From: a virus
Taxonomy: Duplodnaviria; Heunggongvirae; Uroviricota; Caudoviricetes
Length of the DNA stretch: 64,000 nucleotides
IMG/VR virus record: IMGVR_UViG_3300028048_000051
Location: 111,843 to 175,842 of that record
Direction: 5' to 3' (one strand)
Positions 1-61,214 of the stretch are shown here, piece after piece. The notes below the pieces were generated by a model. It was not told the DNA's origin. It did not search any database and saw only the letters and a program-made list of their open reading frames with translations. Position numbers and translations under genes: made by a program. How positions within the stretch are numbered: the stretch's first letter is position 1; every line of letters begins with the position of its first letter.

Positions 1-162
1 ACCGGCCGCACAAGCTGCAGTTCACCTAATCTGCAGAACTATCCGTCGCGGGACAAGGAATATCCGTTGCGCAACATCTTCATGCCTCCGGAGGGGTTTG
101 TGTTGTGCGCTACGGACTTTTCCTTCATAGAGTCGAACGAGCATGGCTCTCTTGCCGGGTAA
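1..162 (+). CDS. polA: Family-A DNA polymerase (Pol I-like) fragment, 5'-truncated by window edge, ending inside motif A
   Basis: Frame 1 reads ...SPNLQNYPSRDKEYPLRNIFMPPEGFVLCATDFSFIESNEHGSLAG*, matching the Pol I region NLQNIP...DYSQIELR. In-frame TAA at 160-162. Confidence 0.7.
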   Translation, partial: TGRTSCSSPNLQNYPSRDKEYPLRNIFMPPEGFVLCATDFSFIESNEHGSLAG

Positions 163-1129
163 CCGACATGACAAAAGAAAGTGAATTGCTGGAACGCCCA
201 ATGTGCGTAAGCATAATGGCCGATCAGCAGCCGATCAAGGATCGCCTAAACCAGAGGCATGGCGACCGGAAAAGGTTCATCGACCATCCGAAAGGAGTAG
301 GACTCTTCGTCCGAAGCGCTCCATCCCCGGAAACAGGGATGATGATATGGTCAGACCCCGCAGGAATGCGGAAAGGAGAAGAAAGTACATGAAGAACAAA
401 CACGGTGTTATCTACAAGATAGTATGCGCTCTCCACGAGCCGCACGTTGTCTATGTAGGGAAGACAACCCAAACACTGACCGGAAGACTCAGTCATCATG
501 CGGCCAGGCAACGCAAGCCCACAGCTATCAATAAATTGATAAGAACTGTAGGAAAGCAGTATTTCAGTATAGCGAAGATAGCTGAATCAGACGATCCGGT
601 AGAGTTGGCAGCACTGGAGAAGCGCTACATACAGGAATATAAATGCCTGTACAACAAGCGTATTGGCGCAGACTTCACGGAAAAGGATGTGCAGGAAGCA
701 CGAGAAACCTGCTACAAGAACAGGGCCGTGATCTGCGACGAAATGGGTACTGCCTACATATCCAGCGCAGAGGCAGCACGAGCCTTGGGATTGTGCGGTA
801 GCGATGTTCAGGAATGCTGCGCAAAACACCTGCAGCAGACCAAAGGCCTCCATTTTCGGTATGCTGACATGCCGCGCGAGGGTTATGTCGAATATTGGAA
901 CAATTCCATGATCCACAGAAACCGGCGTGTGCACTGCCCGGAGCTTCGTCAGACCTACGTGAATTGTCAGGCTGCAGCCACGGCTACTGGAGTGTCGAGA
1001 GACATCGTTTATCGTCAGTGTAATCACAAGGTTGCCAATTCCCGCTGTGGCTACACCTTCATGTACGAGGACTCGAAATGAGTATGCGCGTTCGCACAAA
1101 GTTGCCTTACGCGGTTCGGCAAATCGCGT
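163..1129 (+). mobile_element. Insertion interrupting polA at motif A; carries a GIY-YIG homing endonuclease gene (candidate group I intron or free-standing HEG that splits the gene)
   Basis: polA reading frame stops at 162 and resumes at 1130 with the motif A continuation (MADIINAGLDPH..., then KxxNFG motif B and VHDE motif C). There is 226 nt without an ORF before the HEG gene. Confidence 0.45.
389..1081 (+). CDS. GIY-YIG family homing endonuclease
   Basis: N-terminus MKNKHGVIYKI...VVYVGKT is the GIY-x10-YVG motif. A C-terminal helix-turn-helix-like segment (SSAEAARALGL) follows. Sits inside the split polA. Confidence 0.8.
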   Translation: MKNKHGVIYKIVCALHEPHVVYVGKTTQTLTGRLSHHAARQRKPTAINKLIRTVGKQYFSIAKIAESDDPVELAALEKRYIQEYKCLYNKRIGADFTEKDVQEARETCYKNRAVICDEMGTAYISSAEAARALGLCGSDVQECCAKHLQQTKGLHFRYADMPREGYVEYWNNSMIHRNRRVHCPELRQTYVNCQAAATATGVSRDIVYRQCNHKVANSRCGYTFMYEDSK

Positions 1130-9542: not shown

Positions 9543-10499
9543 ATGTTTGATTTCGATATGCCTCCCATCTCATGGAGGGAAGCAAGGATTCCCAAAAAAT
9601 CCGGGGGATTCCGTAAACTGGAGATCCCCAACGACGAGTTGAAGGCGGTACAACGTACTATCTTACAATACTTGTACCGTAACAAACGGCTTCGTCCGTC
9701 TGCCATGGCCCACGGGTTTGTTCCGTTCAGGAATACCTGCACGGCCCTGACACACCACAATACCAAAGCACCGATTATTCTGTGCATGGATATCCATGAC
9801 TTCTTCGGGACCTTTCCCCTGGAACCGGTGCGGGGGCGAATGCTGTCTGCCGGGTTGCCGGCTACTGTGGTGGACAAAATCCTGTCTGTCTGTACCTACA
9901 AGGGACATTTCCCTCAGGGTGCTCCGACTTCGCCGTATCTTACCAACATCGGAATGTTGGACACCGACAGGGTGCTTGCCGCCTACGCGTCGCGCCATGG
10001 TTACATCTACACCAGGTATGCCGACGACATTACCTTCTCTCTGAAGTCGTCTGAAAGGCCGATCAAAGGACAGGCATTCATTTTCTACGGCGTGGAGAAG
10101 ATTCTCAGTGTGATGCTGGGTATTCATCTCAAGAAATCCAAAAGTCACATCATCGACATCAAAGGTCGTGCCGCACGTCGCGTCACCGGTGTCGTGGTGC
10201 GCAAAGACGGGCTTGGGTTCAATGCACCGCGGAAAATGCGTAAAAACACTCGCGCCGGTATTCATAACCTGGCGGAGAAGATCAGGAAAAATCGAGGCAG
10301 GGTTTTCGACGAGGACCATCTGAAGTGGCGTGAACTGCTGGGTTATGCCAGGTACATGGATACGCTGCGCAGTTACAGCCCGGAACCGCAGGCGGCCGGA
10401 GCCGATCCGACGATATCTGAGATCGACTGGCGCTATCTGTGTCGGAAATTCAATTACAAGAAAGGATTGGAAGATGGAAATGGAACAATTCCCGATTGA
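9543..10499 (+). CDS. reverse transcriptase, small retron/DRT-like (RT domain only, 318 aa)
   Basis: Contains motif 1/2 IPKKSGGFRKLEIP, motif A ILCMDIHDFF, motif B' QGAPTSPYLTN, motif C YTRYADDITF, motif D/E LGIHLKKSKS, and an RRVTGVVV 'VTG' motif typical of retron-type RTs. Confidence 0.85.
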   Translation: MFDFDMPPISWREARIPKKSGGFRKLEIPNDELKAVQRTILQYLYRNKRLRPSAMAHGFVPFRNTCTALTHHNTKAPIILCMDIHDFFGTFPLEPVRGRMLSAGLPATVVDKILSVCTYKGHFPQGAPTSPYLTNIGMLDTDRVLAAYASRHGYIYTRYADDITFSLKSSERPIKGQAFIFYGVEKILSVMLGIHLKKSKSHIIDIKGRAARRVTGVVVRKDGLGFNAPRKMRKNTRAGIHNLAEKIRKNRGRVFDEDHLKWRELLGYARYMDTLRSYSPEPQAAGADPTISEIDWRYLCRKFNYKKGLEDGNGTIPD

Positions 10500-11412
10500 T
10501 GACGTGATCCCGGTGGATCATGCGCATCTGATCGAGGACCAAAACCGCCTGATCCTGCAACATGGTGGGGTGGTTACTCGCGTATTCTTCAACAAGGTAT
10601 CGCGGATGCCGCTGGATCATTATCTGAAGCACGAACTGCCGAAGGCTGACGGGACGACGAAATGTCACCTGATCCGAGACTACAACCACAATAACATCAC
10701 CATGATTCTGGACGATCACGTGGCGGTGTATGATGTGGCTTCGATCGAGGAAGTGTCTTTGAAAGATTTGGCCGACAACCTGATCACGACACAGAATCTG
10801 GAGCTGTTTCCAGATATTCCGTATCAGATCATCGGGTACATCAAACAACAGGACTGCCTGCTCGTCACGGTGTATATCCCAGCCAGTTGGTTCAATTACA
10901 GAGCTGCTGACGTGGATTCGGTGCGGGTGATGCATCCGCCGCTGTGGTTCAGAATCAAGCTCAACAATGCCGGAGCCCTGCTGTCTTCCGCCATGGCGGT
11001 GGTGCGAACCACAGAACCGCGATGGAAAAATACGCAGCTGTACAAATGGCTGTTGCCTAACGTATTTCCGAACAATGAAATATGTTTGGGATGTTCCCAA
11101 CTGTCCGGGGGCATCGATAATCCCACGAGCGGCCAGGCAATCATGTCGGTGTATCATCAGGTATTCGACAGTTTGTGGAACTACCATTTGTTCAACAGCG
11201 ATGATGCCGACAAGGCCGTCATGGCTGCATTCAATGCATTACCGAAAAACAGGGTACCGTTCGAGGGTCTGACGGACAAGGCACACAGTGCCACCGCATC
11301 CATAAAACGCATGCTGTCCGTGCTGCACCAGCCGGAAGGTTGGCGACAGATAAAATGGCCCGAGAATCAGTTTTCCGCCGAGGACTTTGTCCGAGGTAAG
11401 GGAGGTAGGTGA
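10474..11412 (+). CDS. hypothetical protein immediately downstream of and overlapping the RT gene
   Basis: Internal ATG (MEMEQF) of ORF 10330..11412. Contains VFPNNEICLGCSQL and MHPPLW segments with weak resemblance to E2/UEV-like HPN loops. Confidence 0.5.
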   Translation: MEMEQFPIDDVIPVDHAHLIEDQNRLILQHGGVVTRVFFNKVSRMPLDHYLKHELPKADGTTKCHLIRDYNHNNITMILDDHVAVYDVASIEEVSLKDLADNLITTQNLELFPDIPYQIIGYIKQQDCLLVTVYIPASWFNYRAADVDSVRVMHPPLWFRIKLNNAGALLSSAMAVVRTTEPRWKNTQLYKWLLPNVFPNNEICLGCSQLSGGIDNPTSGQAIMSVYHQVFDSLWNYHLFNSDDADKAVMAAFNALPKNRVPFEGLTDKAHSATASIKRMLSVLHQPEGWRQIKWPENQFSAEDFVRGKGGR

Positions 11413-11669
11413 TGAGACCGAGTATTGCCGGCCGCCACTCCAAATTGAGGTGTGTAGAAGCGCCAGTCATGGTTACACGCGCCGGTAAAATGCTTTTTGA
11501 GGATGTTACGGTGTATTATCCGGAACTGAAAGCACTGGCGCTGGCTTTCAACAAATCCAAGGAGACCAGACGTATGAACATCTTGGCTGAACACGTCAAG
11601 AACGAACGACATATGGCTGGGGAAATCAACACGGAGGACCTGGATATAACCGTCCTCGACAACAAGTAA
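11409..11669 (+). CDS. hypothetical small protein
   Basis: ATGATG start overlapping the upstream stop codon (GTGATG). Confidence 0.45.
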   Translation: MMRPSIAGRHSKLRCVEAPVMVTRAGKMLFEDVTVYYPELKALALAFNKSKETRRMNILAEHVKNERHMAGEINTEDLDITVLDNK

Positions 11670-11679
11670 AGGTATTCAA

Positions 11680-12747
11680 ATGAAAAACATGATTGTGGGC
11701 AGCGATGGCTGTCTGATTCGGACTCAGTCCAAGCTGATTTCCGGATGGGAGAAGTGCGACGACCTGAAAGTACTCAAGGCGTATGCCAAACCCCTGCCCG
11801 ATGGCTTTCAGGATGGGCTGAAGTGGATCGGAGCCAAAATTCCGGTCGAACTGATGCGCCGCATGTGGGCAACAATGAAAGAATTTCCTCATCGGGAAAT
11901 CGGATTCATGTTGTACATCAACAGCGAGAGTGGGGAGTGGTATGTAAAGTGCCCGCCTCAGCGCGGTTCCGGCGGCAGCGTCTTCATGGAAGACAAGGGA
12001 GAAGGCGTTCCTGACGGATTCGCCTGGATCGGCACTGTGCATACGCATCCCAACATGGGCGCGTTTTGGAGTGGCACCGATCAGAATGACCAGAAGGCCA
12101 AGTACGGGCTGCACTTCGTTTTCGGACTTGACGACGGTGTGCCCAAGCGGTGGAAGGTGACGATCTTCACACCGCGGGCGTCGTACGATCAGGAGATTCT
12201 TGACGTAGTTGAAGCCCTTCCGGATGACCAGAATCTTGGCGAGCCCGTCAAGGAATGGCTGGAGGTGTTGAATAAGCCGCTGCCCGAATCCGCCGAACGT
12301 CAGCGCTGCAATGTCGCGTGGTCTACTCCGATGTCGCCCTCGATGGCGTCGGCATTGCTCACCAAGCCGACGCTGTCGATACCTTCCGGGTCTTACTCCG
12401 ATCCTTCTCGCGAACGCAGAGCGCTCATGACCGATGTATTCAGAGAGGGATGGGAAGAGGTGCTCAAGGCACATATCGATTCTCTGTTCGGGCTTCTCGA
12501 TATGTGCGAAGATTCTTTCCCCGAACTTATGATATCCGACCTGCTCGTTGAGCAAATGTATAATCACGGGTGGCAGGATGCGGTGATGCAGTCATTGATG
12601 GAGATCCAGTCCGATGATGGATGGAGTTCTGCAGAATTGCGCAGAGCCTACGACATGCAACTTGCCGAGGGTCAGGATAAGTATCCGCCGAATGACGCTG
12701 ATGATGACCTGTGGGATGTGGGCTGCAGAAAGGCTTCCAAATGCTGA
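11680..12747 (+). CDS. JAB/MPN (JAMM) metallopeptidase domain protein with C-terminal extension
   Basis: E...GTVHTHPNMGAFWSGTDQND is the JAMM motif HxHx7Sx2D. Confidence 0.75.
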   Translation: MKNMIVGSDGCLIRTQSKLISGWEKCDDLKVLKAYAKPLPDGFQDGLKWIGAKIPVELMRRMWATMKEFPHREIGFMLYINSESGEWYVKCPPQRGSGGSVFMEDKGEGVPDGFAWIGTVHTHPNMGAFWSGTDQNDQKAKYGLHFVFGLDDGVPKRWKVTIFTPRASYDQEILDVVEALPDDQNLGEPVKEWLEVLNKPLPESAERQRCNVAWSTPMSPSMASALLTKPTLSIPSGSYSDPSRERRALMTDVFREGWEEVLKAHIDSLFGLLDMCEDSFPELMISDLLVEQMYNHGWQDAVMQSLMEIQSDDGWSSAELRRAYDMQLAEGQDKYPPNDADDDLWDVGCRKASKC

Positions 12748-26226: not shown

Positions 26227-27387
26227 ATGTACAAAATTGCAGAGAATGTCCTGTCATGGTGCAATGATCCGGAGTCCGGAGCGCAGTTTCAGGCGATGAA
26301 TATCTCTCGCCATCCGTGTCTCATTGGCAATGTGTGTCTCATGCCGGACACGCATGAAGGTTACGGCATGCCGATAGGCGGCGTGGCGGCATTTGAAAAT
26401 GCCGTCTGTCCCAACATGGTCGGCGTGGATATCGGCTGTGGGATGCTCGCGGTGAGGACATCCATCATCGAAAAACCCGGTCGTGAGGAGCTGTGTCGGG
26501 TCGTACAGAAGATACGAGCGTCCGTTCCTGTCGGGACTTCCCATCAGAGTACACCGCAGCCCGACGAATTGTTCGACGAGCCGATTTGGAGCAGTAACAG
26601 TGTTTGCGGGTTTGAGTGCGAAAATGCCAAGCGACAACTTGGTACGCTCGGCGGTGGCAATCACTTCATCGAGCTGCAGTGGGGTGATGATGGGCATATG
26701 TGGCTCATGATCCATTCCGGCTCACGTAATCTCGGTAAAAAAGTTGCCGATTATTACAACAACATCGCGGTAGAACTCTGCACCAGATGGCGGCAGATCG
26801 AGTGCGTCAGGGATCAACTGGCTTTCTTGCCTCGCGGCACCACGGAATATACTGATTACATGCGCGAGATGAACGCCTGCATACGTTTCGGTCAGGCCAA
26901 TCGTCGACATATTGCCGATGCCGTGATCCGCGCGATCAGTGAGGTATTCAGCAGCCAATGTCCTGATTTTGCCGATCCCATCAACATCAAGCACAACTAC
27001 GCCACTCTGGAACATCACTACGGCAAGGATGTCATGGTACACCGCAAGGGCGCTACGCTTGCCAGGAAAGGCGTCATCGGTATCATTCCCGGGTCACAGG
27101 GCAGCTGCTCGTATATCGTGGAGGGTCTGGGTAACGAGGCGTCGCTTTGTTCCTGTTCACACGGAGCCGGCCGCAGAATGTCGCGTTCGCGCGCACGCTC
27201 AGTGTTGAGTCTTGAGGACGAGGTTGCCAAGATGGATGCTTGCGGCATAGTGCATGGCATCAGCTGTGCCGATGACCTGGACGAGGCGCCGTCCGCGTAC
27301 AAGGACATAGACACTGTCATGCGGGAGCAGGCTGATCTGGTGAAGCCGTTGGTGCAGCTTAGCCCGTTGGCGGTCATCAAAGGATAG
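26227..27387 (+). CDS. rtcB: RtcB-family RNA ligase
   Basis: MPDTHEGYGMPIGGV, GGGNHFIE, HRKGAT and SCSHGAGR are RtcB active-site motifs. CAAGGAGGAAAACCA ribosome-binding site. Confidence 0.9.
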   Translation: MYKIAENVLSWCNDPESGAQFQAMNISRHPCLIGNVCLMPDTHEGYGMPIGGVAAFENAVCPNMVGVDIGCGMLAVRTSIIEKPGREELCRVVQKIRASVPVGTSHQSTPQPDELFDEPIWSSNSVCGFECENAKRQLGTLGGGNHFIELQWGDDGHMWLMIHSGSRNLGKKVADYYNNIAVELCTRWRQIECVRDQLAFLPRGTTEYTDYMREMNACIRFGQANRRHIADAVIRAISEVFSSQCPDFADPINIKHNYATLEHHYGKDVMVHRKGATLARKGVIGIIPGSQGSCSYIVEGLGNEASLCSCSHGAGRRMSRSRARSVLSLEDEVAKMDACGIVHGISCADDLDEAPSAYKDIDTVMREQADLVKPLVQLSPLAVIKG

Positions 27388-28153: not shown

Positions 28154-28597
28154 ATGGAGAAACAGAAACTCAAGTTCCATTGTTCGGAACCTAACCTTGA
28201 CCAGCTGGTCAAAGCGCATCCCACTGATGCCGGGTACGACCTGTGCTGTGCCGAACACACCGTGACCGTTCCGGCACGCGAGTGGGCGGTGATAGCTACC
28301 GGCGTGCGCCTGGCTATTCCGGAAGGCTACGTCGGCATTGTCAAGCCGCGTTCCGGTCTGGCGGCCAAACAAGGCATCGACGTAGGTGCCGGCGTCATCG
28401 ACTCCGGATATCGTGGAGAGGTCAAGGTGGTGCTTTTCAACCATTCCGATACGGATGTCCAATTCCAATACGGAGATCGTATCGCTCAGTTGGTGGTGCT
28501 CCAACTTTTCACCGGAGATTTGGAGAAAGTTGAATCCACGGATGATCTGCCGGAAGCCGATCGTGCGGAAAAGGGATTTGGAAGCAGTGGAGTATGA
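28154..28597 (+). CDS. dut: dUTP diphosphatase
   Basis: AGYDL, RSGLA, GVIDSGYRGEV, GDRIAQL and a C-terminal GFGSSG motif. Confidence 0.9.
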   Translation: MEKQKLKFHCSEPNLDQLVKAHPTDAGYDLCCAEHTVTVPAREWAVIATGVRLAIPEGYVGIVKPRSGLAAKQGIDVGAGVIDSGYRGEVKVVLFNHSDTDVQFQYGDRIAQLVVLQLFTGDLEKVESTDDLPEADRAEKGFGSSGV

Positions 28598-32515: not shown

Positions 32516-32689
32516 ATGGATTTTGTGTTTTTCTATTTGATCGTGACTGCGTGGACATGGCTCGGCAGACAGTATATGCTGACATCTGAAGATGACCGTC
32601 GCGATTATTTTCGTAACGGCTTTGCCGAGTTCATCAGATGTCTTGGCTGGCCGTTGATGTTGATTAACCACAAGGAGAAAACTAAATGA
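32516..32689 (+). CDS. small hydrophobic protein
   Basis: Internal ATG of ORF 32468..32689; MDFVFFYLIVTAWTWL... Confidence 0.35.
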   Translation: MDFVFFYLIVTAWTWLGRQYMLTSEDDRRDYFRNGFAEFIRCLGWPLMLINHKEKTK

Positions 32690-33753
32690 GGAAGTTGGCA
32701 AGCATCAGAACGATAGAGTCTCTCAGTCCTATCGAGGGCGCGGATAAGATCGAGTTGGCTCATACCGGTGGATGGCAATGTGTGGTCGGCAAGGACCAGT
32801 TCAAACCTGGTGAAGCTGCTGTGTTTTTCGAGATCGACAGTGCTTTGGCTCCAAATGATGAGCGTTATGCTTTCTTGAAGCCGACATGTCTTAAGGAATG
32901 GCGGAACAAGGACGGACAGCTCGTTGATTCCTGTATACGGATTCGTACCATGCGGTTCCGTGGTCAGATCTCGCAGGGGTTGTTTATGCCCATTCACGAT
33001 TTTCCAGAGATTGTGGATAGGACTGAGGGAATTGACCTTACTGAAGTACTGCATGTACGGCATTTCGACCTGATCAAGGAGCAGGCCGATACCATTCTCG
33101 GCAAGGTAAAGCTCGCTGGAGACATCTATGGTAGTTTCCCATCGGCATTGGTCCCGAAGACCGATGAGGAAAGACTGCAGAATCTGATGGACTATTTCGA
33201 GACCAGGAAAGATGTAGCCTTTGAATGTACTGAGAAGTTCGACGGATGCAGCGTTACCTTTGGGTACTCCACCACGTTGGAGGATCCATTCTTTGTCTGT
33301 GGCAGAAACAACCGTCTCAAGGACACGGGAGAGAATCTCTACTGGCGAATGGCGAGAAAGTACGATCTGCAGCATCTTCTGGAGCAGTGCTCCAAGATGG
33401 GAACTGACCTGGCCATCCAAGCCGAGATAGTCGGTCCCGGAGTCAACGGCAATCGGGATCAATACACCGAGCATGAGATACGGGTATTTCGTATCTACGA
33501 CATGCAGAAGCAGCAGTGGTTGACTCCTGAAGCGCGTCATGCATTTTGTGAACGCCATAAACTGCCGCATGTCAAGATCGTCCGTGATAACTGGGAGGTG
33601 TTCAAGGAGTTCACATCGTTGGATGACTTCCTGAGGTTCGTTGAGGGCAAAACCGATCGGGGGCATGAGCGGGAGGGCATGGTGTGGAAATCTCTAAATG
33701 GTCGTACCAGCTTCAAGGTCATCAACAATAATTACTTGCTGAAGGAGAAGTGA
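32686..33753 (+). CDS. ATP-dependent polynucleotide ligase of the covalent nucleotidyltransferase superfamily, RNA-ligase-like
   Basis: TEKFDGCS (motif I KxDG lacking the Arg typical of DNA ligases) and EGMVWK (motif V). Confidence 0.6.
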   Translation: MRKLASIRTIESLSPIEGADKIELAHTGGWQCVVGKDQFKPGEAAVFFEIDSALAPNDERYAFLKPTCLKEWRNKDGQLVDSCIRIRTMRFRGQISQGLFMPIHDFPEIVDRTEGIDLTEVLHVRHFDLIKEQADTILGKVKLAGDIYGSFPSALVPKTDEERLQNLMDYFETRKDVAFECTEKFDGCSVTFGYSTTLEDPFFVCGRNNRLKDTGENLYWRMARKYDLQHLLEQCSKMGTDLAIQAEIVGPGVNGNRDQYTEHEIRVFRIYDMQKQQWLTPEARHAFCERHKLPHVKIVRDNWEVFKEFTSLDDFLRFVEGKTDRGHEREGMVWKSLNGRTSFKVINNNYLLKEK

Positions 33754-49180: not shown

Positions 49181-49344
49181 AAAACTTCACTGTGCATATG
49201 AAAGTCACCAAAGAATATAGCTTCACATTGCCGGCGGAAGATCTCGACGACGCATGGGAGAACGCCAAGGAGGCATTTGACCTCAATGATGCTGAGGAGA
49301 TATTCTCAAAGAAAGACATCATCAACATCGTGGAGCAGAAGTAA
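49180..49344 (+). CDS. small acidic protein (54 aa)
   Basis: Not in the track; GGAGGAAGT ribosome-binding site; coordinates hand-counted. Confidence 0.3.
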   Translation, partial: KNFTVHMKVTKEYSFTLPAEDLDDAWENAKEAFDLNDAEEIFSKKDIINIVEQK

Positions 49345-49733
49345 TGGACAAAACATGTGAATCCATCTACCAGGGCAAACCCTTGATTGCAGTAGGCAGT
49401 ACGGCGTGGGTGATACACTCGTCGAATCTTGTCAATGGCCCGAATGTGGGGACTGCGCGAGTGTCGAAAATAGAGATCACCCCGAATGGCGTGTATTATT
49501 TGCTGCATGGCGATGATAATAACGTCACGTACACCAAGAGCGCAAACCATGTTTTCGGCGATCGGGATGCCGCATACATGGCGGCTCTCGGGTGCATGCA
49601 CGAGGCTTGTCACCAGCAACTTGAGCAGGCTGAAAAAGCTATTTCCGAAAAGAAGGAGGAGCTGGAAGAACTCCTGAAGATCCGGGAGCGCATCAACTCG
49701 ATGATGACATCGATGCCGTGGAGGGACAACTGA
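49344..49733 (+). CDS. paralogue family B-like member (beta-rich N-terminus plus coiled coil)
   Basis: Same architecture as 44268 and 44620. Confidence 0.45.
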   Translation: MDKTCESIYQGKPLIAVGSTAWVIHSSNLVNGPNVGTARVSKIEITPNGVYYLLHGDDNNVTYTKSANHVFGDRDAAYMAALGCMHEACHQQLEQAEKAISEKKEELEELLKIRERINSMMTSMPWRDN

Positions 49734-50065
49734 TGGTGCAGAAGAAAACCATTGGTGTTGGTGACAAGGCGTTCTTCTACGAGATCGATCCGTTCGGCGA
49801 TGGCGACGTGTGGGAGGGTCGTGTTACTACGGTTACTAAGGAACATAGCTATGTGTTGATCGTCAACGATAAGCCCATATATGTCCCAGAAGCCCGTATT
49901 TTCGACTCTAGGGTCAAAGCCAAACATGCTCTCAGGAAAGCGATGATCAATAGTCTGGAGCAGAGACTTGACAATCTGCATGGTCGAGTTGAGGATTTGG
50001 AGCAGGCCTTACGGTTGATGAAGAAGGTCCTCGGCAATATAATTATGAAGATGAAGGAGATGTGA
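49733..50065 (+). CDS. paralogue family B member
   Basis: MVQKKTIGVGDKAFFYEID...; ATGA overlap. Confidence 0.5.
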   Translation: MVQKKTIGVGDKAFFYEIDPFGDGDVWEGRVTTVTKEHSYVLIVNDKPIYVPEARIFDSRVKAKHALRKAMINSLEQRLDNLHGRVEDLEQALRLMKKVLGNIIMKMKEM

Positions 50066-50494
50066 GATGTCCAAGGAAAACATCGAAAGCGCTCTCATCC
50101 CGCACAGAGTGGTGGAAGACGTGTACATCGGTGACATGTCTCCACTTCGCGCCTGGCGATTGTACCAGAGCTTCGTCAATCCGGGATACGTCCCGACGCT
50201 GTGGTAGATCGATGCGATGTGCGCCAAGCTCGGCATGACGCGGAACGAGTACATCGAACTCGAACTAAAAAAGCATCCCGACCCGGAGCTGCTGAAGAAG
50301 GCGGCCGATGCGCTCGGCATCACGCCGGAGCAGCTCGACGTGCGCGGTACGTATTTCGGACATGCGAAGGATACTGAAAATGCCTGATTGCACATCGACG
50401 GGATTTGCGTCGTGGGAACTCGCGGCCTGGCATGCCTGTGCTGACATGTACGCTTTCTACAGTAAGGCGCAGGAATGCGGAATAAGGAGTACGT

Positions 50495-50839
50495 ATGGAA
50501 GAGCAACTCAAGAATATCGTTCCTGACCTGAAGTTGTGCAAACATATCCCGGAGGGCGAGTTTGCCGACAGTGCCCTGGTGTGGGAACGGAACATCGGGC
50601 TGGACAGAACGGAGTATGAACCGGTCGTGAACACGCGCAAGGCCGCGCTCGACCACAACATCATCTGCCCTGCCCCCACTTTGGAGGAGGTGCTGAAGAA
50701 ACTTCCGCTCGCCATGTGCCGCCAGTATTTCGATGACGGCGATTGGTGCGTAGGATTGAATCACGTGGTCGTATGCGAGCCCTGCGCCGCTTCGGCGGCA
50801 CTGCAGCTGTGGCTGGCGCGACAGAAACCGAAACCCTGA
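50495..50839 (+). CDS. paralogue family A member
   Basis: MEEQLKNIVPDLKLCKHIPEGEFADSALVW...CPAPTLEEVLKK. Confidence 0.5.
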   Translation: MEEQLKNIVPDLKLCKHIPEGEFADSALVWERNIGLDRTEYEPVVNTRKAALDHNIICPAPTLEEVLKKLPLAMCRQYFDDGDWCVGLNHVVVCEPCAASAALQLWLARQKPKP

Positions 50840-58211: not shown

Positions 58212-58345
58212 GGTACTTCCTCCTACTGTATGGCTATGACGCTGATAAAGTATACTACTTAAAGTTGATAATTTCAAGTCGAAAACGACTTAATTTCAAA
58301 GGTTTTTTCGGCATAATATAATGGAACGAAAGTTCCAAAAGTAAA

Positions 58346-59080: not shown

Positions 59081-59222
59081 ACAAAAAAAAAAACAGGCTT
59101 GGGCAGTGCCGTTAAACTGCCCACCGTCCAGGCGGGTCGTTCCCGTCTGCCGATGAGCCAACGATCCGCAAAACAGCGGTAAAGGCGAAACGGTAACGTC
59201 GTTACGGTCATTGTTCAGCCGT

Positions 59223-59234
59223 AACGATTCACAA
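59223..59234 (+). promoter_or_regulatory. AAGTATAACCCA motif copy 2
   Basis: acaAGTATAACCCAaacataAGGAGGGTAcatcATG. Confidence 0.5.
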
Positions 59235-59263
59235 GTATAACCCAAACATAAGGAGGGTACATC

Positions 59264-60283
59264 ATGAACGTCAACACCAACACCATTAACAACAACGTCA
59301 TCAGCTGCCGTGATCTCGAGCTTCCGTTCAACGAGGCTCTGCTCACAGCCAACGAGAAGCTCTTCATCGAGAAGGGCTGGGACGGCGAGGCCTGCCTCAA
59401 GACCGCGCTGCGTTTCGAAGATGTGGTTGCCGTCCACGACGGCGAGTTCCACAGCGATGAGGTTCTGAGCCTCGCGCTGTTGGTAGTATTCGCGGGGCTG
59501 GACCCCGAACAGCGGATGCGGACCCGCGATCCGAAGAAGCTCATGGACGCCGACCTCCGGGTCGACGTGGGCGAAGGCCTCCTCGACCATCACGGCGCTC
59601 GTGCCACCACCGGAGTAGCGGCCTGCAGCCGGGTGTTCGCGTTGTTGAGAAACACCGGAGTTTTCCGTAAACTAGCGCTGTCGACCAGGGCGGTAGACGC
59701 CCTGGTCGACCTGGTCGATCGGGTAGCCGCGGTCGACACCGGCGATCCCAATGCCGAGGGGCACTGGATCATCGACATGGTCCAGACTTTTAATCGGGCC
59801 ACTACAGTAATAACTGGAGAAGATTTCTTCGACCGCGCCGTAGCGGCGGTCGTCGACGCTCTTCAATGCATCATCGGCATTGCCGATGCCGAGGCGATCG
59901 CAACCAATGCGGCGCTTGATGCGATCGTGGCCGCTGACGGGGATGCCGTCGTGGCATTCCCGGCGGAAGCCCGGGCGGCGAAGTGCAAGGAGCTGTTGTG
60001 GAAACACGCGAAGGACTGCGTGTACTACGTCAGCCCCGAGAGTCCTGACGATTGGCGCATTCTTTGCGCCGCGGCTCCGGAAGTCAGCCCCGCGGACGGA
60101 AAGGCATTCGCTTTCTCCAGCCGTCGACTGATCCCGGAGAGATTCCGAGGACTTCGCGGAGAACAACTCTCGGAGGTCACCGGCATCGACGGAGGCATCT
60201 TCAGCCACGCGGCAGGTTTTATCGCGGGTTTCAAGACTCGCGAGGCGGCAATCCATTTCGCGGTGCTTTGTCTCCGCGACTGA
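59264..60283 (+). CDS. MYG1/UPF0160-like metal-dependent hydrolase family protein (high-GC gene)
   Basis: VAVHDGEFHSDEVLSLALL resembles the MYG1 signature THNGTFHCDEALACALL. GC content is clearly above the surrounding genome. Confidence 0.4.
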   Translation: MNVNTNTINNNVISCRDLELPFNEALLTANEKLFIEKGWDGEACLKTALRFEDVVAVHDGEFHSDEVLSLALLVVFAGLDPEQRMRTRDPKKLMDADLRVDVGEGLLDHHGARATTGVAACSRVFALLRNTGVFRKLALSTRAVDALVDLVDRVAAVDTGDPNAEGHWIIDMVQTFNRATTVITGEDFFDRAVAAVVDALQCIIGIADAEAIATNAALDAIVAADGDAVVAFPAEARAAKCKELLWKHAKDCVYYVSPESPDDWRILCAAAPEVSPADGKAFAFSSRRLIPERFRGLRGEQLSEVTGIDGGIFSHAAGFIAGFKTREAAIHFAVLCLRD

Positions 60284-60295
60284 TTTAATGATCGG

Positions 60296-60375
60296 GGGGC
60301 CGGAAGAGGTTCGACGGGGCGCAAAGCCAAAGCGCAAAGCTCCGGACAGGGATTCGATTCCCCTCGGCTCCACCA
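60296..60375 (+). ncRNA. tmRNA tRNA-like-domain mimic (5' and 3' tmRNA termini fused, about 80 nt, genomically encoded CCA, G3·U70 acceptor pair)
   Basis: GGGGCCGGAAGAGGUUCGACGGGG... resembles the tmRNA 5' end GGGGCUGAUUCUGGAUUCGACGGG. ...GGACAGGGAUUCGAUUCCCCUCGGCUCCACCA resembles the tmRNA 3' end GGACGCGGGUUCAACUCCCGCCAGCUCCACCA. No mRNA-like domain. Confidence 0.45.
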
Positions 60376-60388
60376 ATTCTTTCATGGG

Positions 60389-60461
60389 GGCGCGGTAGCT
60401 CAAAGGTAGAGCTCTCGACGCTTAATCGAGCGGGTGAAGGTTCGAGTCCTTCCTGCGCCCC
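60389..60461 (+). tRNA. tRNA (anticodon-loop positions give CUU = Lys, but with unusual G at position 33)
   Basis: Acceptor GGCGCGG/CUGCGCC; U8A9; D-stem GCUC/GAGC; anticodon stem CUCGA/UCGAG with loop CGCUUAA; T-arm GAAGG-UUCGAGU-CCUUC. Confidence 0.65.
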
Positions 60462-60522
60462 CGTCATTTTATAAATCAATATGGACGTCATCCACGGTGG
60501 GTGGCGTCCTTTTTATTTCCCA

Positions 60523-60533
60523 AAGTATAACCA
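60523..60533 (+). promoter_or_regulatory. AAGTATAACC(A) motif copy 3
   Basis: cccaAAGTATAACCAAGGAGaataaaaATG. Confidence 0.45.
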
Positions 60534-60545
60534 AGGAGAATAAAA

Positions 60546-61088
60546 ATGAAGAAGGTTTTTTCAATGTTTTTGGCGCTCATTTGCGCCGTTACCGTCTTTG
60601 CCGGATTCCCGGCCAACATATACATCGCGGATCCACAGGACGTCGCGTCCGTGGTGTCCAAACTGCAGAAGCAGCAGAACGCCGAAACAGTGTACGTCGA
60701 AACCTTTATGCAGGGTTTCCGCGCTGGCTTCACAATAGCCAGTGACAAGGAGTTGGGAACTCTCGAACTGCGGTACGTTCGTAAGAAGGTAGAGGAGTTC
60801 GTGGCTACTAAGCTGGTTCCGGTCCTGAAGCGGGATGGCTTTTATGAAGACTGGCGAAAGGCCCAGTTTGATCCGGAGCAGATCTTCATGGTCGAGGACG
60901 TTGTACAGATGTATCTCGATCATGAGGCTTACTCCCCTAAGGAGCTGATGGCTAAAATAGAAAAGCATGTGGCCATCATGAGGAAGAAGCATCCTGTCAT
61001 AAAGATGATGGAAAACGATCCCAAATACGTGGGTATGATCGTTATCCTGAACAGAGATATCGTCGCCCACTTCAAACAGGACAAGTGA
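60546..61088 (+). CDS. secreted protein with signal peptide
   Basis: MKKVFSMFLALICAVTVFAGFPA... Confidence 0.5.
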   Translation: MKKVFSMFLALICAVTVFAGFPANIYIADPQDVASVVSKLQKQQNAETVYVETFMQGFRAGFTIASDKELGTLELRYVRKKVEEFVATKLVPVLKRDGFYEDWRKAQFDPEQIFMVEDVVQMYLDHEAYSPKELMAKIEKHVAIMRKKHPVIKMMENDPKYVGMIVILNRDIVAHFKQDK

Positions 61089-61214
61089 TCATGGCCAAGG
61101 TCAAAATGGTACTTTGTTTCGCGGTCGGAGATTTCTTCGACTTCGCCGGTTGCGGTATTTGTGCGGCTCGTTGGTACCTGCGCGGTGCCAATTGCATCAA
61201 GGGAGGTGACTACA

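What the first reader, a model, noticed from the sequence alone, without database searches (positions are those of the whole stretch)
60296..60461. tmRNA tRNA-like-domain mimic with encoded CCA and G3·U70, next to a tRNA with a non-canonical G33
An 80-nt element starts with GGGGCCGGAAGAGGUUCGACGGGG, close to the tmRNA 5' end GGGGCUGAUUCUGGAUUCGACGGG. It ends with GGACAGGGAUUCGAUUCCCCUCGGCUCCACCA, close to the tmRNA 3' end ...GGGUUCAACUCCCGCCAGCUCCACCA. Its acceptor helix GGGGCCG/CGGCUCC contains the AlaRS identity pair G3·U70, and CCA is genomically encoded. Nothing resembling an mRNA-like tag ORF or pseudoknots lies between. It could be an alanylatable mini-tmRNA or TLD decoy, or a remnant of an attP for a tmRNA-targeting integrase. 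Thirteen nt downstream is a bona fide cloverleaf tRNA whose anticodon loop CGCUUAA places G at position 33, suggesting an unusual or suppressor-like decoding tRNA. Both follow a high-GC, probably horizontally acquired gene.
Basis: seen in the sequence. Interest (0 to 1): 0.75.

Follow-up and report, generated by a model that had tools for sequence, protein, structure and literature searches.

The report
Phage mini-tmRNA beside odd lysine tRNA
A large uncultured phage carries an 80-base gene that keeps only the tRNA-like ends of the bacterial ribosome-rescue RNA (tmRNA), next to a lysine tRNA that lacks the almost universal U at position 33; the first is a new member of a barely studied but widespread phage RNA family, and the pair probably helps the phage manipulate or protect host translation.

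Summary
Window 60296-60375 (+) matches the Rfam tmRNA model above its curated threshold (52.2 vs 47 bits, E 1e-17). All 312 central model positions are replaced by an 18-nt loop. It has G3·U70, A73 and an encoded CCA, and no tag reading frame, stop codon or pseudoknot. Thirteen nt downstream lies a good tRNA-Lys(CUU) (59 bits) with G33.

It is not an attP remnant and not noise. It is a tRNA-like-domain-only (TLD-only) tmRNA, a kind reported so far only from mycobacteriophage DS6A. I located the DS6A copy; it has the same acceptor stem. Pattern scans found about 60 distinct complete copies in viral contigs and genomes, often inside tRNA arrays. Covariation is strong: 96% of cells paired, and 13 of 19 pairs carry compensatory changes.

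Three relatives of this phage keep the same pairing of mini-tmRNA and tRNA-Lys(CUU). Position 33 is always a purine (G, G, A, A), and the anticodon stem covaries.

The most likely function, by inference, is an SmpB/AlaRS-binding decoy that blocks host tagging, or a tag-less rescuer. The tRNA may be a nuclease-resistant tRNA-Lys in a phage that also encodes RtcB and an RNA ligase. "Suppressor-like" decoding is not supported.

Verdict: new member of a known but under-described kind; moderate interest.

The parts
60296..60375 (+). TLD-only mini-tmRNA, 80 nt. Acceptor 5' strand 60296-60302; stemless D-loop analogue 60303-60312; GAC 60313-60315; helix P2 5' strand 60316-60320; 18-nt loop 60321-60338 (GCAAAGCCAAAGCGCAAA); P2 3' strand 60339-60343; GGAC 60344-60347; T arm 60348-60364 (A53·C61 mismatch at 60352/60360); acceptor 3' strand 60365-60371 (U70 = 60369); A73-CCA 60372-60375.
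   Evidence: Rfam tmRNA 52.2 bits, above the gathering score of 47, E 1.2e-17. Family covariation. Relatives L063 and L070 carry compensatory or restoring changes.
60389..60462 (+). tRNA-Lys(CUU) with G33. C32 = 60419, G33 = 60420, anticodon 60421-60423, discriminator C73 = 60460, followed by CC then G (no A76 encoded).
   Evidence: ARAGORN. Rfam tRNA 59.3 bits. Purine-33 and a covarying anticodon stem in four relatives.
60483..60517 (+). Intrinsic-terminator-like hairpin (12-bp stem) plus a T run, closing the transcription unit just after the tRNA.
   Evidence: The hairpin is kept with compensatory changes in L063.
59264..60283 (+). MYG1/UPF0160-family gene (putative 3'-5' RNA exonuclease family). 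Same strand, ends 12 nt before the mini-tmRNA, probably co-transcribed.
   Evidence: Pfam PF03690, E 1.7e-28. The same gene order occurs in L063 and L065.
58295..58322 (+). Sigma-70-like promoter match (TTCAAA-16-TATAAT) upstream of the co-oriented ORFs that lead into the MYG1 gene. A possible start of the unit; weak evidence.
   Evidence: consensus match only.
26227..27384 (+). RtcB RNA ligase gene. Context only: RNA/tRNA repair capacity of the same phage. A functional link is inferred, not shown.
   Evidence: Pfam PF01139, E 1.5e-104. DS6A, the published carrier of a TLD-only RNA, also has an RtcB.
32686..33750 (+). RNA ligase gene (T4 Rnl-like family). Context only.
   Evidence: phrog_968, E 6.8e-72. 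Pfam RNA_ligase and PHA02142.

Best explanation
What it is (confidence about 0.9): a phage gene for a TLD-only tmRNA. The acceptor stem, stemless D-loop, T arm and the first helix (P2a) of tmRNA are closed by a short hairpin loop. The tag reading frame and the pseudoknots are missing.

How it is made (inferred from anatomy): it is transcribed with the upstream MYG1-family gene and the downstream tRNA-Lys, ending at the terminator at 60483. RNase P and 3' trimming then excise it like a tRNA.

How it most likely works (the 0.45 is for this step):
- The mature RNA of about 80 nt binds host SmpB through the retained D-loop/T-loop elbow and the GAC...GGAC junction.
- Because it has G3·U70, A73 and CCA, it is probably also charged by AlaRS and bound by EF-Tu.
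- It cannot provide a resume codon, so it competes with host tmRNA for SmpB and for stalled ribosomes. This suppresses ssrA tagging and degradation of nascent, phage-encoded proteins during infection.

The adjacent tRNA-Lys(CUU) with a purine at position 33 is read as a functional AAG decoder. Its altered anticodon loop may make it a poor substrate for host anticodon-loop nucleases. The phage also has RtcB and an Rnl-type ligase, so the locus may be part of a 'keep translation running under tRNA-targeting defence' toolkit. Only the sequence and structure features and their conservation are shown here. Binding, charging and inhibition are inferred.
For: Identity:
- Rfam tmRNA hit above the curated threshold, with the whole central domain deleted.
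- The same architecture occurs in the published DS6A TLD-only element, which I located at JN698994 28478-28556. It has the identical acceptor stem GGGGCCG/CGGCUCC.

Family reality:
- 52 of 59 IMG/VR pattern hits and 21 of 114 genome hits are complete 64-90-nt minis. With L063 and DS6A they give 60 distinct sequences.
- G1-C72, G2-C71 and G3·U70 are invariant (60/60).
- 96.3% of cells are paired, against 71% in shuffles and 47-56% when partners are slid. The covariation score is 0.652 against 0.139. Thirteen of 19 pairs have changes on both sides (independent count).

Processing as a tRNA: many copies lie 2-15 nt from tRNAs inside tRNA arrays. Here the element is 13 nt upstream of a tRNA, and one terminator follows the pair.

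Lineage conservation:
- L063 (MYG1 85% identical) has the mini at 62.4 bits, with P2 GGAAC/GUUCC against GGGGC/GCUCC in the window, followed by tRNA-Lys with G33.
- L070 has a copy that differs from the window at 2 nt only.
- L065 has two related elements plus tRNA-Lys with A33.

Mechanism:
- PMC4131195 and PMC11915505 report, citing Mao et al. 2009, that a TLD-only molecule strongly inhibits tmRNA in E. coli whether or not it is chargeable, perhaps by titrating SmpB.
- PMC3968760 states that G3·U70 plus A73 specify AlaRS, and that SmpB binds the TLD elbow and D-loop.

tRNA-Lys and repair context:
- No SmpB family appeared in the Pfam scans of the window's ORFs, so the RNA would depend on host SmpB.
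- Phage tRNAs with anticodon-loop changes that evade tRNases: PMC10264068, PMC11464382, PMC12409363.
- RtcB and RNA ligase are in the window.
Against: - There is no expression, processing, charging or binding data for this or any metagenomic copy.
- The window copy has an A53·C61 mismatch at the normally invariant G53-C61 pair (1 of 60). This could weaken T-loop folding and SmpB binding, and may mark a mildly defective allele.
- In the same phage lineage the elements diverge exactly where SmpB should bind. L065a has a D-like stem and no UUCGAC. 'Type B' copies have the T-loops UGUAGUU and UGCAACU. Meanwhile the acceptor stem and ACCA stay constant, which favours charging over SmpB binding as the conserved property.
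- The 3' CTCCACCA (hence U70 and the CCA) and half of the T-stem G-C pairs were demanded by my search patterns. Their invariance is therefore partly by selection; G1-G4, P2 and T-stem pairs 1-2 were not constrained.
- Only 64 kb of a genome of about 176 kb was examined, so a phage SmpB elsewhere is not excluded.
- The link between G33 and nuclease evasion is an analogy. No nuclease or host is known.
Confidence: 0.45

Rival explanations
1. Tag-less ribosome rescuer. Ala-mini-tmRNA with SmpB enters stalled ribosomes and accepts the nascent chain. Having no reading frame, it lets the peptide (+Ala) be released by hydrolysis or drop-off, without a degradation tag. This frees ribosomes for the phage while sparing phage proteins.
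For: - The acceptor stem with G3·U70, A73 and CCA is the most conserved part, even in the divergent lineage copies. That fits a requirement for charging.
- CDS-less tmRNAs that co-occur with SmpB are known in jakobid mitochondria, and there are apparently CDS-less ones in some plastids (PMC11915505).
- About 26 of 60 family members carry UAA at nt 26-29 in the P2 loop, which could act as an immediate stop.
Against: - The window copy and its close relatives have no stop codon at all.
- According to PMC4131195, a similar TLD-only molecule inhibited tmRNA whether or not it was chargeable.
- No release mechanism is known for peptidyl-TLD.
Confidence: 0.2
2. Decoy or substrate for something other than SmpB. 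Examples are a bait for a host tRNA-directed defence nuclease or modifier that recognises the acceptor/CCA end, a sink for AlaRS, or an alanyl donor for a non-ribosomal reaction.
For: - The acceptor end is constant while the SmpB-contact regions vary within the lineage.
- tRNA 3' tails and anticodon loops are known targets of bacterial immunity (PMC12851939, PMC11464382).
- The phage carries RNA-repair genes.
- The loop motif AAAGCCAAAG[CU]GC is conserved in otherwise diverged copies and is unexplained.
Against: - Across the 60-member family the tmRNA-specific UUCGAC...GGAC and stemless D-loop are kept, though my patterns partly demanded this.
- No candidate partner was identified.
Confidence: 0.1
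3. A decaying remnant of a once complete phage tmRNA, or a neutral tRNA-like passenger, with no present function.
For: - A53·C61 mismatch in the window copy.
- Rapid divergence of paralogous copies in relatives.
- Phages do carry complete and permuted tmRNAs (PMC9004378).
Against: - Compensatory changes occur in 13 of 19 pairs across 60 sequences.
- Lengths fall in a narrow range (mostly 76-84 nt).
- The element is retained next to tRNA-Lys in four diverged relatives and is identical in three independent samples.
Confidence: 0.1
4. RNA-processing punctuation. The tRNA-like fold serves mainly as an RNase P/RNase Z cleavage signal that defines the 3' end of the MYG1 mRNA and the 5' side of the tRNA.
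For: In more distant phages the homologous MYG1 gene is flanked by self-cleaving ribozymes instead. Pistol ribozymes lie on both sides in L189, and also in L187 and L190. An HDV-like match below threshold lies before the gene in L067.
Against: - Any tRNA would serve as a cleavage signal. That does not explain the invariant AlaRS identity set, the encoded CCA and the tmRNA-type D-loop across the family.
- It also does not explain copies embedded in pure tRNA arrays.
Confidence: 0.08
5. An attP or att-site remnant of integration into host ssrA.
For: ssrA is a frequent integration target, and fragments of it occur in prophages (PMC4131195, PMC9004378).
Against: - Att duplications copy only one end (normally the 3' part) of ssrA. 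Here a 5' strand, D-loop, P2 helix, T arm and 3' strand form one compact covarying RNA.
- No integrase family was found in the Pfam scans of window ORFs.
- The gene content is that of a large phage (NrdD, ThyX, Pol A, RtcB, an intron and a GIY-YIG domain) with no integrase seen in this window, although only 64 of about 176 kb was examined.
Confidence: 0.02

Closest known systems
TLD-only tmRNA of mycobacteriophage DS6A (tmRNA Website tmID 11587; Hudson et al. 2014, PMC4131195; Mao et al. 2009 as cited there; PMC11915505)
   Same: - Phage-encoded and about 80 nt: tmRNA 5' and 3' ends joined by a short P2 hairpin, with no tag frame.
- Identical acceptor stem GGGGCCG/CGGCUCC with G3·U70 and A73.
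- Similar A-rich ...AAA[AG]CC... loop.
- Both phages also encode an RtcB ligase.
   Different: - DS6A does not encode CCA (ACTA), has GUCGAC...GCAC instead of UUCGAC...GGAC, and scores below the Rfam threshold (43.2 bits against 52.2 here).
- DS6A is a 60-kb temperate actinophage with an integrase. The window is from a phage of about 176 kb from an unknown host.
- The DS6A element is not next to a tRNA (nearest genes are gp33 and gp34).
- The window copy has the A53·C61 mismatch.
Bacterial tmRNA (ssrA; Rfam RF00023)
   Same: The acceptor stem identity set for AlaRS, the stemless D-loop, the T arm, the tandem G·A junction GAC/GGA and helix P2a are all present. It passes the Rfam gathering score.
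   Different: It lacks all 312 central model positions: resume codon, tag ORF, stop codon and pseudoknots PK1-PK4. It therefore cannot perform the mRNA half of trans-translation.
CDS-less organellar tmRNAs (jakobid mitochondria; about 65-bp plastid genes of Mallomonadaceae; PMC11915505)
   Same: Reduced to the tRNA-like domain and thought to act with SmpB without tagging.
   Different: Those are cellular or organellar, co-evolving with an organelle-targeted SmpB. Here a virus-encoded RNA would act on a foreign (host) SmpB.
Phage tRNAs with anticodon-stem-loop substitutions that escape host tRNases (T5 tRNA-Lys against PARIS AriB, PMC11464382 and PMC12409363; mycobacteriophage tRNAs, PMC10264068)
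   Same: A phage-encoded tRNA-Lys carries a non-canonical anticodon arm, in a phage that also has RNA ligases. T4 uses Rnl and Pnk against PrrC cleavage of tRNA-Lys (PMC10264068).
   Different: - The change here is at the near-universal U33 (G or A), and the isoacceptor is CUU, not UUU.
- No cognate nuclease, host or resistance has been shown.
- AriB cleaves at 40/41, not at 33/34.

Membership tests
tmRNA (RF00023) | Covariance-model score at or above the curated gathering score | tested here: met
   52.2 bits against 47, E 1.2e-17.
tmRNA (RF00023) | Acceptor stem with G3·U70, discriminator A73 and a 3' CCA (AlaRS identity) | tested here: met
   GGGGCCG/CGGCUCC-ACCA read directly. Role of these features: PMC3968760.
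tmRNA (RF00023) | Stemless D-loop, T arm with a T-loop, and the GAC...GGA(C) junction into helix 2 | tested here: met
   GAAGAGGUUC-GAC ... GGAC-AGGGA-UUCGAUU-CCCCU. Caveat: the 53:61 pair is A·C.
tmRNA (RF00023) | mRNA-like domain: resume codon, tag reading frame ending in a stop codon | tested here: not met
   Only 18 nt lie between the P2 strands, with no stop codon in any frame. ARAGORN finds no tmRNA.
tmRNA (RF00023) | Pseudoknots PK1-PK4 | tested here: not met
   312 model positions are absent.
TLD-only tmRNA (DS6A type) | tmRNA 5' and 3' ends contiguous, closed by a short hairpin, total about 65-90 nt, no CDS | tested here: met
   80 nt. Aligns column for column with DS6A and 58 others.
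TLD-only tmRNA (DS6A type) | Encoded by a phage or mobile element | tested here: met
   The window carries NrdD, ThyX, dUTPase, Pol A, RtcB, Rnl, YopX, GIY-YIG and a group I intron. The same protein lies on a 175,842-bp contig.
TLD-only tmRNA (DS6A type) | Inhibits host tmRNA function when expressed / binds SmpB | not testable with these tools
   Reported for a similar molecule (PMC4131195, citing Mao 2009). The Mao paper is not held.
ssrA att-site fragment | Only one end of ssrA duplicated, at an integration junction next to an integrase | tested here: not met
   Both ends are present and paired. No integrase family among the window ORFs scanned.
tRNA-Ala | Full cloverleaf with D stem and anticodon arm carrying a GC-ending Ala anticodon | tested here: not met
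   There is no D stem and no 7-nt anticodon loop. The tmRNA model is the one kept at this site by clan competition, and ARAGORN is silent.
Canonical elongator tRNA (for 60389-60462) | Cloverleaf, 7-nt anticodon loop, T-loop, score above the Rfam threshold | tested here: met
   59.3 bits against 29. ARAGORN calls tRNA-Lys CTT.
Canonical elongator tRNA (for 60389-60462) | U at position 33 | tested here: not met
   G33 here and in L063; A33 in L065 and L070. Among 238 unique tRNAs of the fetched loci, 225 have U33.
Suppressor tRNA | Anticodon complementary to a stop codon, or an expanded loop | tested here: not met
   The anticodon is CUU in a 7-nt loop in all four relatives.
tRNA-Lys (aminoacylation identity) | LysRS identity set (U35/U36 plus discriminator A73 in bacteria; from my own knowledge) | tested here: inconclusive
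   U35 and U36 are present, but the discriminator is C73, and a GGG leader can pair with C73-C74-C75. This is invariant in four relatives.

The most novel reading that the evidence does not exclude
The mini-tmRNA and the purine-33 tRNA-Lys(CUU) form one conserved phage counter-defence module.
- When a host anticodon nuclease depletes tRNA-Lys and ribosomes stall on phage mRNAs, the phage supplies a cleavage-resistant AAG decoder.
- At the same time it floods the cell with an alanylatable TLD decoy, which stops SmpB-tmRNA from tagging the stalled phage proteins for destruction.
- RtcB, the Rnl-type ligase and perhaps the MYG1 exonuclease repair or mature the RNAs.

More broadly, TLD-only tmRNAs would be a widespread class of viral anti-trans-translation RNA, so far unnamed and missed by ARAGORN. 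The class has at least 60 distinct sequences here and also sits in cyanobacterial tRNA clusters.
Probability: 0.2. Interest if true: 0.75.

Novelty: new member of a known kind. Interest (0 to 1): 0.5.

Why it matters
Trans-translation is the main bacterial ribosome-rescue and quality-control pathway, and it is an antibiotic target. A natural, virus-encoded RNA that mimics only its tRNA-like half would be a ready-made inhibitor or modulator.

The literature held here names a single phage example, DS6A. The data gathered here show dozens of covarying relatives in phage tRNA arrays, prophage-like contigs and Nostoc tRNA clusters. The class is therefore much broader than recorded, and standard annotation largely misses it. 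ARAGORN called this copy nothing, and DS6A falls below the Rfam threshold.

The neighbouring tRNA-Lys shows that an elongator tRNA can persist without U33 (G or A) across diverged phages. That bears on the current idea that phage tRNAs evolve to escape anticodon nucleases. Both ideas are directly testable with an 80-nt transcript and standard AlaRS, SmpB and tRNase assays.

Tried and rejected
- BLAST of 59200-61200 against cultured phages found only generic tRNA similarity (L5 and Gordonia tRNA-Asn). There was no relative of the locus.
- An IMG/VR search for relatives of the MYG1 protein returned none. PHROGs gave nothing for it or for most large ORFs.
- The metagenome pattern scan for the tRNA-Lys family returned a single contig, L070. 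That contig proved useful, but the scan did not give the intended unbiased sample of position 33.
- The plain MAFFT alignment (A1) misaligned the 5' acceptor strands because the D-loop length varies. I replaced it with an anchor-based, N-padded alignment (A3) for pair counting.
- 7 of 59 viral hits and 93 of 114 genome hits were ordinary or permuted tmRNAs whose helix 2 happens to contain TTCGAC. They were excluded.
- ARAGORN's 'tmRNA' calls with odd tags at L019 and L048 were judged to be over-extensions of minis.
- DS6A gave no hit at the Rfam gathering threshold. It was found by a structural regular expression and then confirmed at 43.2 bits.
- Mao et al. 2009 could not be read, so its result is cited second-hand.
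- MYG1 contexts L067, L068 and L187-L190 have no mini-tmRNA or tRNA-Lys, so the MYG1 linkage is confined to the window's closer relatives.
- Alternative anticodon-loop registers that would restore U33 or give a UUA or UAA anticodon do not form a stem (by inspection). I rejected them.
- A second copy in the window was sought with CGGCTCCACCA at up to one mismatch. Only chance-level hits inside ORFs were found.
- No covariance model was built, because the Rfam model plus direct pair counts sufficed.
Full report
1. WHAT IS IN THE SEQUENCE

The element. Window 60296-60375 (+) is an 80-nt element: GGGGCCG-GAAGAGGUUC-GAC-GGGGC-[GCAAAGCCAAAGCGCAAA]-GCUCC-GGAC-AGGGA-UUCGAUU-CCCCU-CGGCUCC-ACCA.
- Rfam's tmRNA model (RF00023) matches it end to end (model 1-374) at 52.2 bits, above the curated threshold of 47, with E 1.2e-17. 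The 312 central model positions are replaced by 18 nt.
- ARAGORN does not report it.
- The minimum-free-energy fold gives the same three helices. Its z-score is unremarkable (-1.6), as expected for a short GC-rich RNA.
- The acceptor stem has G1-C72, G2-C71, G3·U70 and G4-C69, followed by A73 and an encoded CCA.
- There is no UAA, UAG or UGA in any frame, so there is no tag reading frame.

The tRNA. Thirteen nt downstream, 60389-60460/62 is a high-scoring tRNA (Rfam 59.3 bits; ARAGORN tRNA-Lys, anticodon CTT). The anticodon loop CGCUUAA places G at position 33 (60420).

The flanks.
- A strong terminator-like hairpin (12-bp stem plus a T run) follows at 60483.
- The gene that ends 12 nt upstream (59264-60283) belongs to the MYG1/UPF0160 family (Pfam E 1.7e-28). 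It is GC-rich: 61.4% against 52.3% for the window.

2. WHAT KIND OF GENOME THIS IS

- Most ORFs are on the + strand. They include anaerobic ribonucleotide reductase NrdD, ThyX, dUTPase, dCTP deaminase-like, a family A DNA polymerase, a GIY-YIG domain, YopX, a sigma-70-like factor, RtcB and a T4 Rnl-like RNA ligase. There is a group I intron at 110-373.
- The MYG1 protein occurs identically on contigs of up to 175,842 bp, and an 85% relative occurs on a 178,417-bp contig. This is therefore a large uncultured phage.
- It has no close relative among cultured phages or in IMG/VR.
- The same DNA (99.97-100% identical) was assembled independently from three samples. G33 and A53 are therefore real alleles, not errors.
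- No SmpB or integrase family appeared in the Pfam scans of the window's ORFs.

3. THE ELEMENT BELONGS TO A REAL, WIDESPREAD RNA FAMILY

The search. I scanned for a tmRNA 5' motif (TTCGAC), a gap of 12-42 nt, and the tmRNA 3' end.
- The viral scan gave 59 viral contigs. In 52 of them a 7-nt strand complementary to the 3' acceptor strand lies 9-14 nt upstream of TTCGAC. My pattern did not require this strand. These are complete minis of 64-90 nt, and all start with GGGG.
- The other seven viral hits are ordinary or permuted phage tmRNAs.
- A slightly looser pattern on one genome per species gave 114 hits. Of these, 21 are complete minis. The rest are normal tmRNA 3' regions.

Pair counts. Adding the relative L063 and phage DS6A gave 60 distinct sequences in an anchor-based alignment. 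On the named structure:
- 96.3% of cells form standard pairs. The figure is 71% in column shuffles and 47-56% when partners are slid.
- The covariation score is 0.652, against 0.139 in shuffles and at most 0.12 when slid.
- 13 of 19 pairs show changes on both sides.
- An independent count, anchored only on the invariant motifs, gave 89.5% pairing in P2 against 32-43% when shifted.

Caveats.
- The 3' CTCCACCA (hence U70 and the CCA) and two T-stem G-C pairs were imposed by the patterns.
- Acceptor complementarity was a selection criterion.
- The unconstrained evidence is therefore: P2 (six covarying pairs), T-stem pairs 1-2 (four pair types each, 100% paired), the identity of acceptor positions 5-7, and the invariant G1-G4.

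Genomic setting. Many copies lie 2-15 nt from tRNAs inside phage tRNA arrays: L001, L008, L014, L033, L043, L051, L053, L054, L107 and L127. This is what one expects of an RNA matured by the tRNA-processing machinery.

4. THE CLOSEST KNOWN THING

The tmRNA database papers list one phage with a 'TLD only' tmRNA, mycobacteriophage DS6A.
[quoted passage not shown] 2009; repeated in PMC11915505).
- The GenBank record does not annotate the element.
- I located it at JN698994 28478-28556 (+): GGGGCCG-CAAUGGUGGUC-GAC-CGCCG-[ACGAAAACCGCACGCGGUAC]-CGGCG-GCAC-GCGAG-UUCGAUU-CUCGC-CGGCUCC-A.
- It has the same acceptor stem as the window element and the same architecture, but no encoded CCA.
- Rfam scores it 43.2 bits, below threshold.

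The window element is therefore a clearer member of the same kind. CDS-less organellar tmRNAs (PMC11915505) are a looser parallel. The held literature names no phage example other than DS6A. The breadth found here seems not to be recorded.

5. RELATIVES OF THIS PHAGE

L063 (MYG1 85% identical, many shared genes).
- Gene order is MYG1, mini, tRNA-Lys, terminator.
- Its mini scores 62.4 bits and has an intact T stem (AGGGG/CCCCU).
- Its P2 is GGAAC/GUUCC, where the window has GGGGC/GCUCC. This is a compensatory change.
- Its tRNA-Lys has the same CGCUUAA loop.

L070 (downstream ORFs 80-92% identical).
- It has a type A mini that differs from the window at just two positions. Both restore Watson-Crick pairs: A-U for G·U in P2, and G53-C61 for A·C.
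- It also has a shorter 'type B' mini (68 nt; UUUCGAUA; T-loop UGUAGUU) and a tRNA-Lys(CUU) with loop CACUUAA, that is A33.

L065 (MYG1 54-56% identical).
- It has a tRNA-like element with G3·U70 and ACCA, a short D-like stem, and a 17-nt loop carrying the same AAAGCCAAAGUGC motif.
- It then has tRNA-Arg, tRNA-Lys(CUU) with A33 and a covarying anticodon stem (CUGCA/UGCAG against CUCGA/UCGAG), and a type B mini whose P2 covaries with that of L070.

What this shows.
- The pairing of a mini-tmRNA with a purine-33 tRNA-Lys(CUU) is conserved in this lineage.
- The acceptor end (GGGGCCG/CGGCUCC-ACCA) is the most stable part.
- The regions that contact SmpB in tmRNA vary.
- The window's A53 is a derived, probably slightly destabilising, allele.

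6. THE tRNA

- Among 238 distinct tRNAs in all loci fetched, 225 have U33, 8 have C, 3 have G and 2 have A. The purine cases are this tRNA-Lys lineage (four sequences) plus one tRNA-Pro.
- The cloverleaf is otherwise canonical, and the anticodon stem covaries. It is therefore a maintained gene, not a pseudogene.
- The anticodon is a normal CUU, so nothing suggests suppression.
- Two oddities remain unexplained. The discriminator is C73. A GGG leader can pair with C73-C74-C75, and this is invariant in all four relatives. Its charging identity therefore cannot be settled here.
- Published work shows that phage tRNAs accumulate anticodon-stem-loop changes that protect them from host tRNases. T5 tRNA-Lys escapes PARIS AriB in this way, and T4 repairs PrrC-cut tRNA-Lys with its RNA ligase (PMC10264068, PMC11464382, PMC12409363).
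- RtcB and an Rnl-type ligase are in this window. A nuclease-evading tRNA-Lys is therefore a reasonable reading, but it is untested.

7. HOW IT MOST LIKELY WORKS

Shown:
- tmRNA-type TLD anatomy, with the AlaRS identity set and an encoded CCA.
- Absence of any coding part.
- Family-wide covariation.
- A tRNA-array context.
- Conservation next to tRNA-Lys.
- A single terminator after the pair.

Inferred:
- Co-transcription with the MYG1 gene.
- RNase P and exonuclease maturation.
- Binding of host SmpB at the D-loop/T-loop elbow and alanylation by AlaRS (roles as reviewed in PMC3968760).
- Competition with host tmRNA, so that tagging of stalled nascent chains is suppressed. This follows the inhibition reported for a similar TLD-only molecule.

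I give the identity about 0.9 and the decoy mechanism about 0.45. The rivals are:
- Tag-less rescue (0.2). It is favoured by the constancy of the chargeable end. It is disfavoured by the report that charging was not needed for inhibition, and by the lack of any stop codon here.
- A decoy or substrate for another acceptor-end-recognising factor (0.1).
- A decaying remnant (0.1). Covariation and retention argue against it.
- RNA-processing punctuation (0.08). This was prompted by pistol ribozymes flanking the homologous MYG1 gene in other phages.
- An att-site remnant (0.02). Both halves form one covarying RNA, and no integrase was seen.

8. VERDICT

The mini-tmRNA/TLD-decoy reading stands, the G33 tRNA is real, and attP and suppressor decoding are rejected.
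- It is a new member of a known but barely described kind.
- The added value lies in three points: the apparent breadth of the family, its invisibility to routine annotation, and the conserved partnership with an elongator tRNA that lacks U33.
- Interest is moderate (0.5).

Noticed in passing
window 110-373 (+): Group I catalytic intron (Rfam RF00028, 52.1 bits, gathering score 50). An ORF at 347-1081 overlaps its 3' part. A GIY-YIG domain was detected among the window ORFs, so this may be a homing-endonuclease intron.
   Followed up: no
L189 3902-3968 and 5043-5109; L187 1553-1612 and 1884-1943; L190 2967-3038; L067 4664-4733: In more distant large-phage contigs the homologous MYG1-family gene is flanked by Pistol self-cleaving ribozymes (54-61 bits, gathering score 34.5). 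In L067 it is preceded by an HDV-like ribozyme match (38.5 bits, below threshold). This suggests that these genes are excised from polycistronic RNA by RNA-based processing signals.
   Followed up: partly
L070 943-1010; L065 6866-6934: A second, shorter 'type B' mini-tmRNA (68-69 nt) occurs in relatives. It has the same acceptor stem GGGGCCG/CGGCUCC-ACCA, but UUUCGAUA in place of UUCGAC and non-canonical T-loops (UGUAGUU, UGCAACU). Its P2 helix covaries between the two loci. It is absent from the window.
   Followed up: partly
L065 6466-6545: A hybrid tRNA-like element. It has G3·U70, ACCA and a 3-bp D-like stem. Its 'anticodon' stem closes a 17-nt loop that carries the same AAAGCCAAAGUGC motif as the loop of the window mini-tmRNA. 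ARAGORN miscalls it tRNA-Phe(aaa). The conserved loop motif is unexplained.
   Followed up: partly
L065 7742-7812 and 8130-9644: A Ro60-like vWA gene (PF25045) is preceded by a weak tRNA-like hit (34.4 bits). This may be a phage Ro60/Y-RNA-like pair, in the same contig as the MYG1 gene and the tRNA arrays.
   Followed up: no
L097, L129, L130, L131, L135, L140, L079, L101, L180 (Nostoc and other cyanobacterial genomes): A conserved 84-nt TLD-only tmRNA gene lies in or near cyanobacterial tRNA clusters. These clusters also hold odd tRNAs (CUA anticodon called 'Pyl', and two-base anticodons). TLD-only genes are therefore not confined to phage contigs.
   Followed up: partly
L013, L022, L033, L037, L053, L054, L079 (tRNAs listed): Nine further phage or genomic tRNAs lack U33 (eight C33, one G33), out of 238 distinct tRNAs. 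Non-U33 elongator tRNAs recur at about 5% in these mini-tmRNA-bearing contigs.
   Followed up: partly
window 60386-60388 and 60460-60466, and the same positions in L063, L065, L070: The tRNA-Lys leader GGG and the trailer C73-CC-GTCAT are invariant in four relatives while the other flanks vary. GGG can pair with C73-C75. C73 is atypical for a bacterial tRNA-Lys and recalls the G-1:C73 feature of tRNA-His. Charging identity is unresolved.
   Followed up: partly
JN698994 (DS6A) 28478-28556 and gp76 at 49300-50502: The published DS6A TLD-only RNA is not annotated in the GenBank record and falls below the Rfam gathering score (43.2 bits). DS6A, like the window phage, encodes an RtcB ligase (37% identical to the window's).
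   Followed up: yes
family alignment A3, nt 26-29 of about 26 of 60 members: Many minis carry UAA at the start of the P2 loop (UAAAGCC or UAAGACC). The window, L063 and DS6A have CAAAGCC or GAAAACC instead. Whether this UAA acts as an immediate stop codon is unknown.
   Followed up: partly
window 10345-12744: Neighbouring ORFs have weak matches to prokaryotic E2 (Prok-E2_D, E 4e-4) and JAB (Prok-JAB, E 3e-6) domains. A ThiF-family hit lies elsewhere in the window. This may be a ubiquitin-like conjugation or deconjugation gene set in the phage.
   Followed up: no
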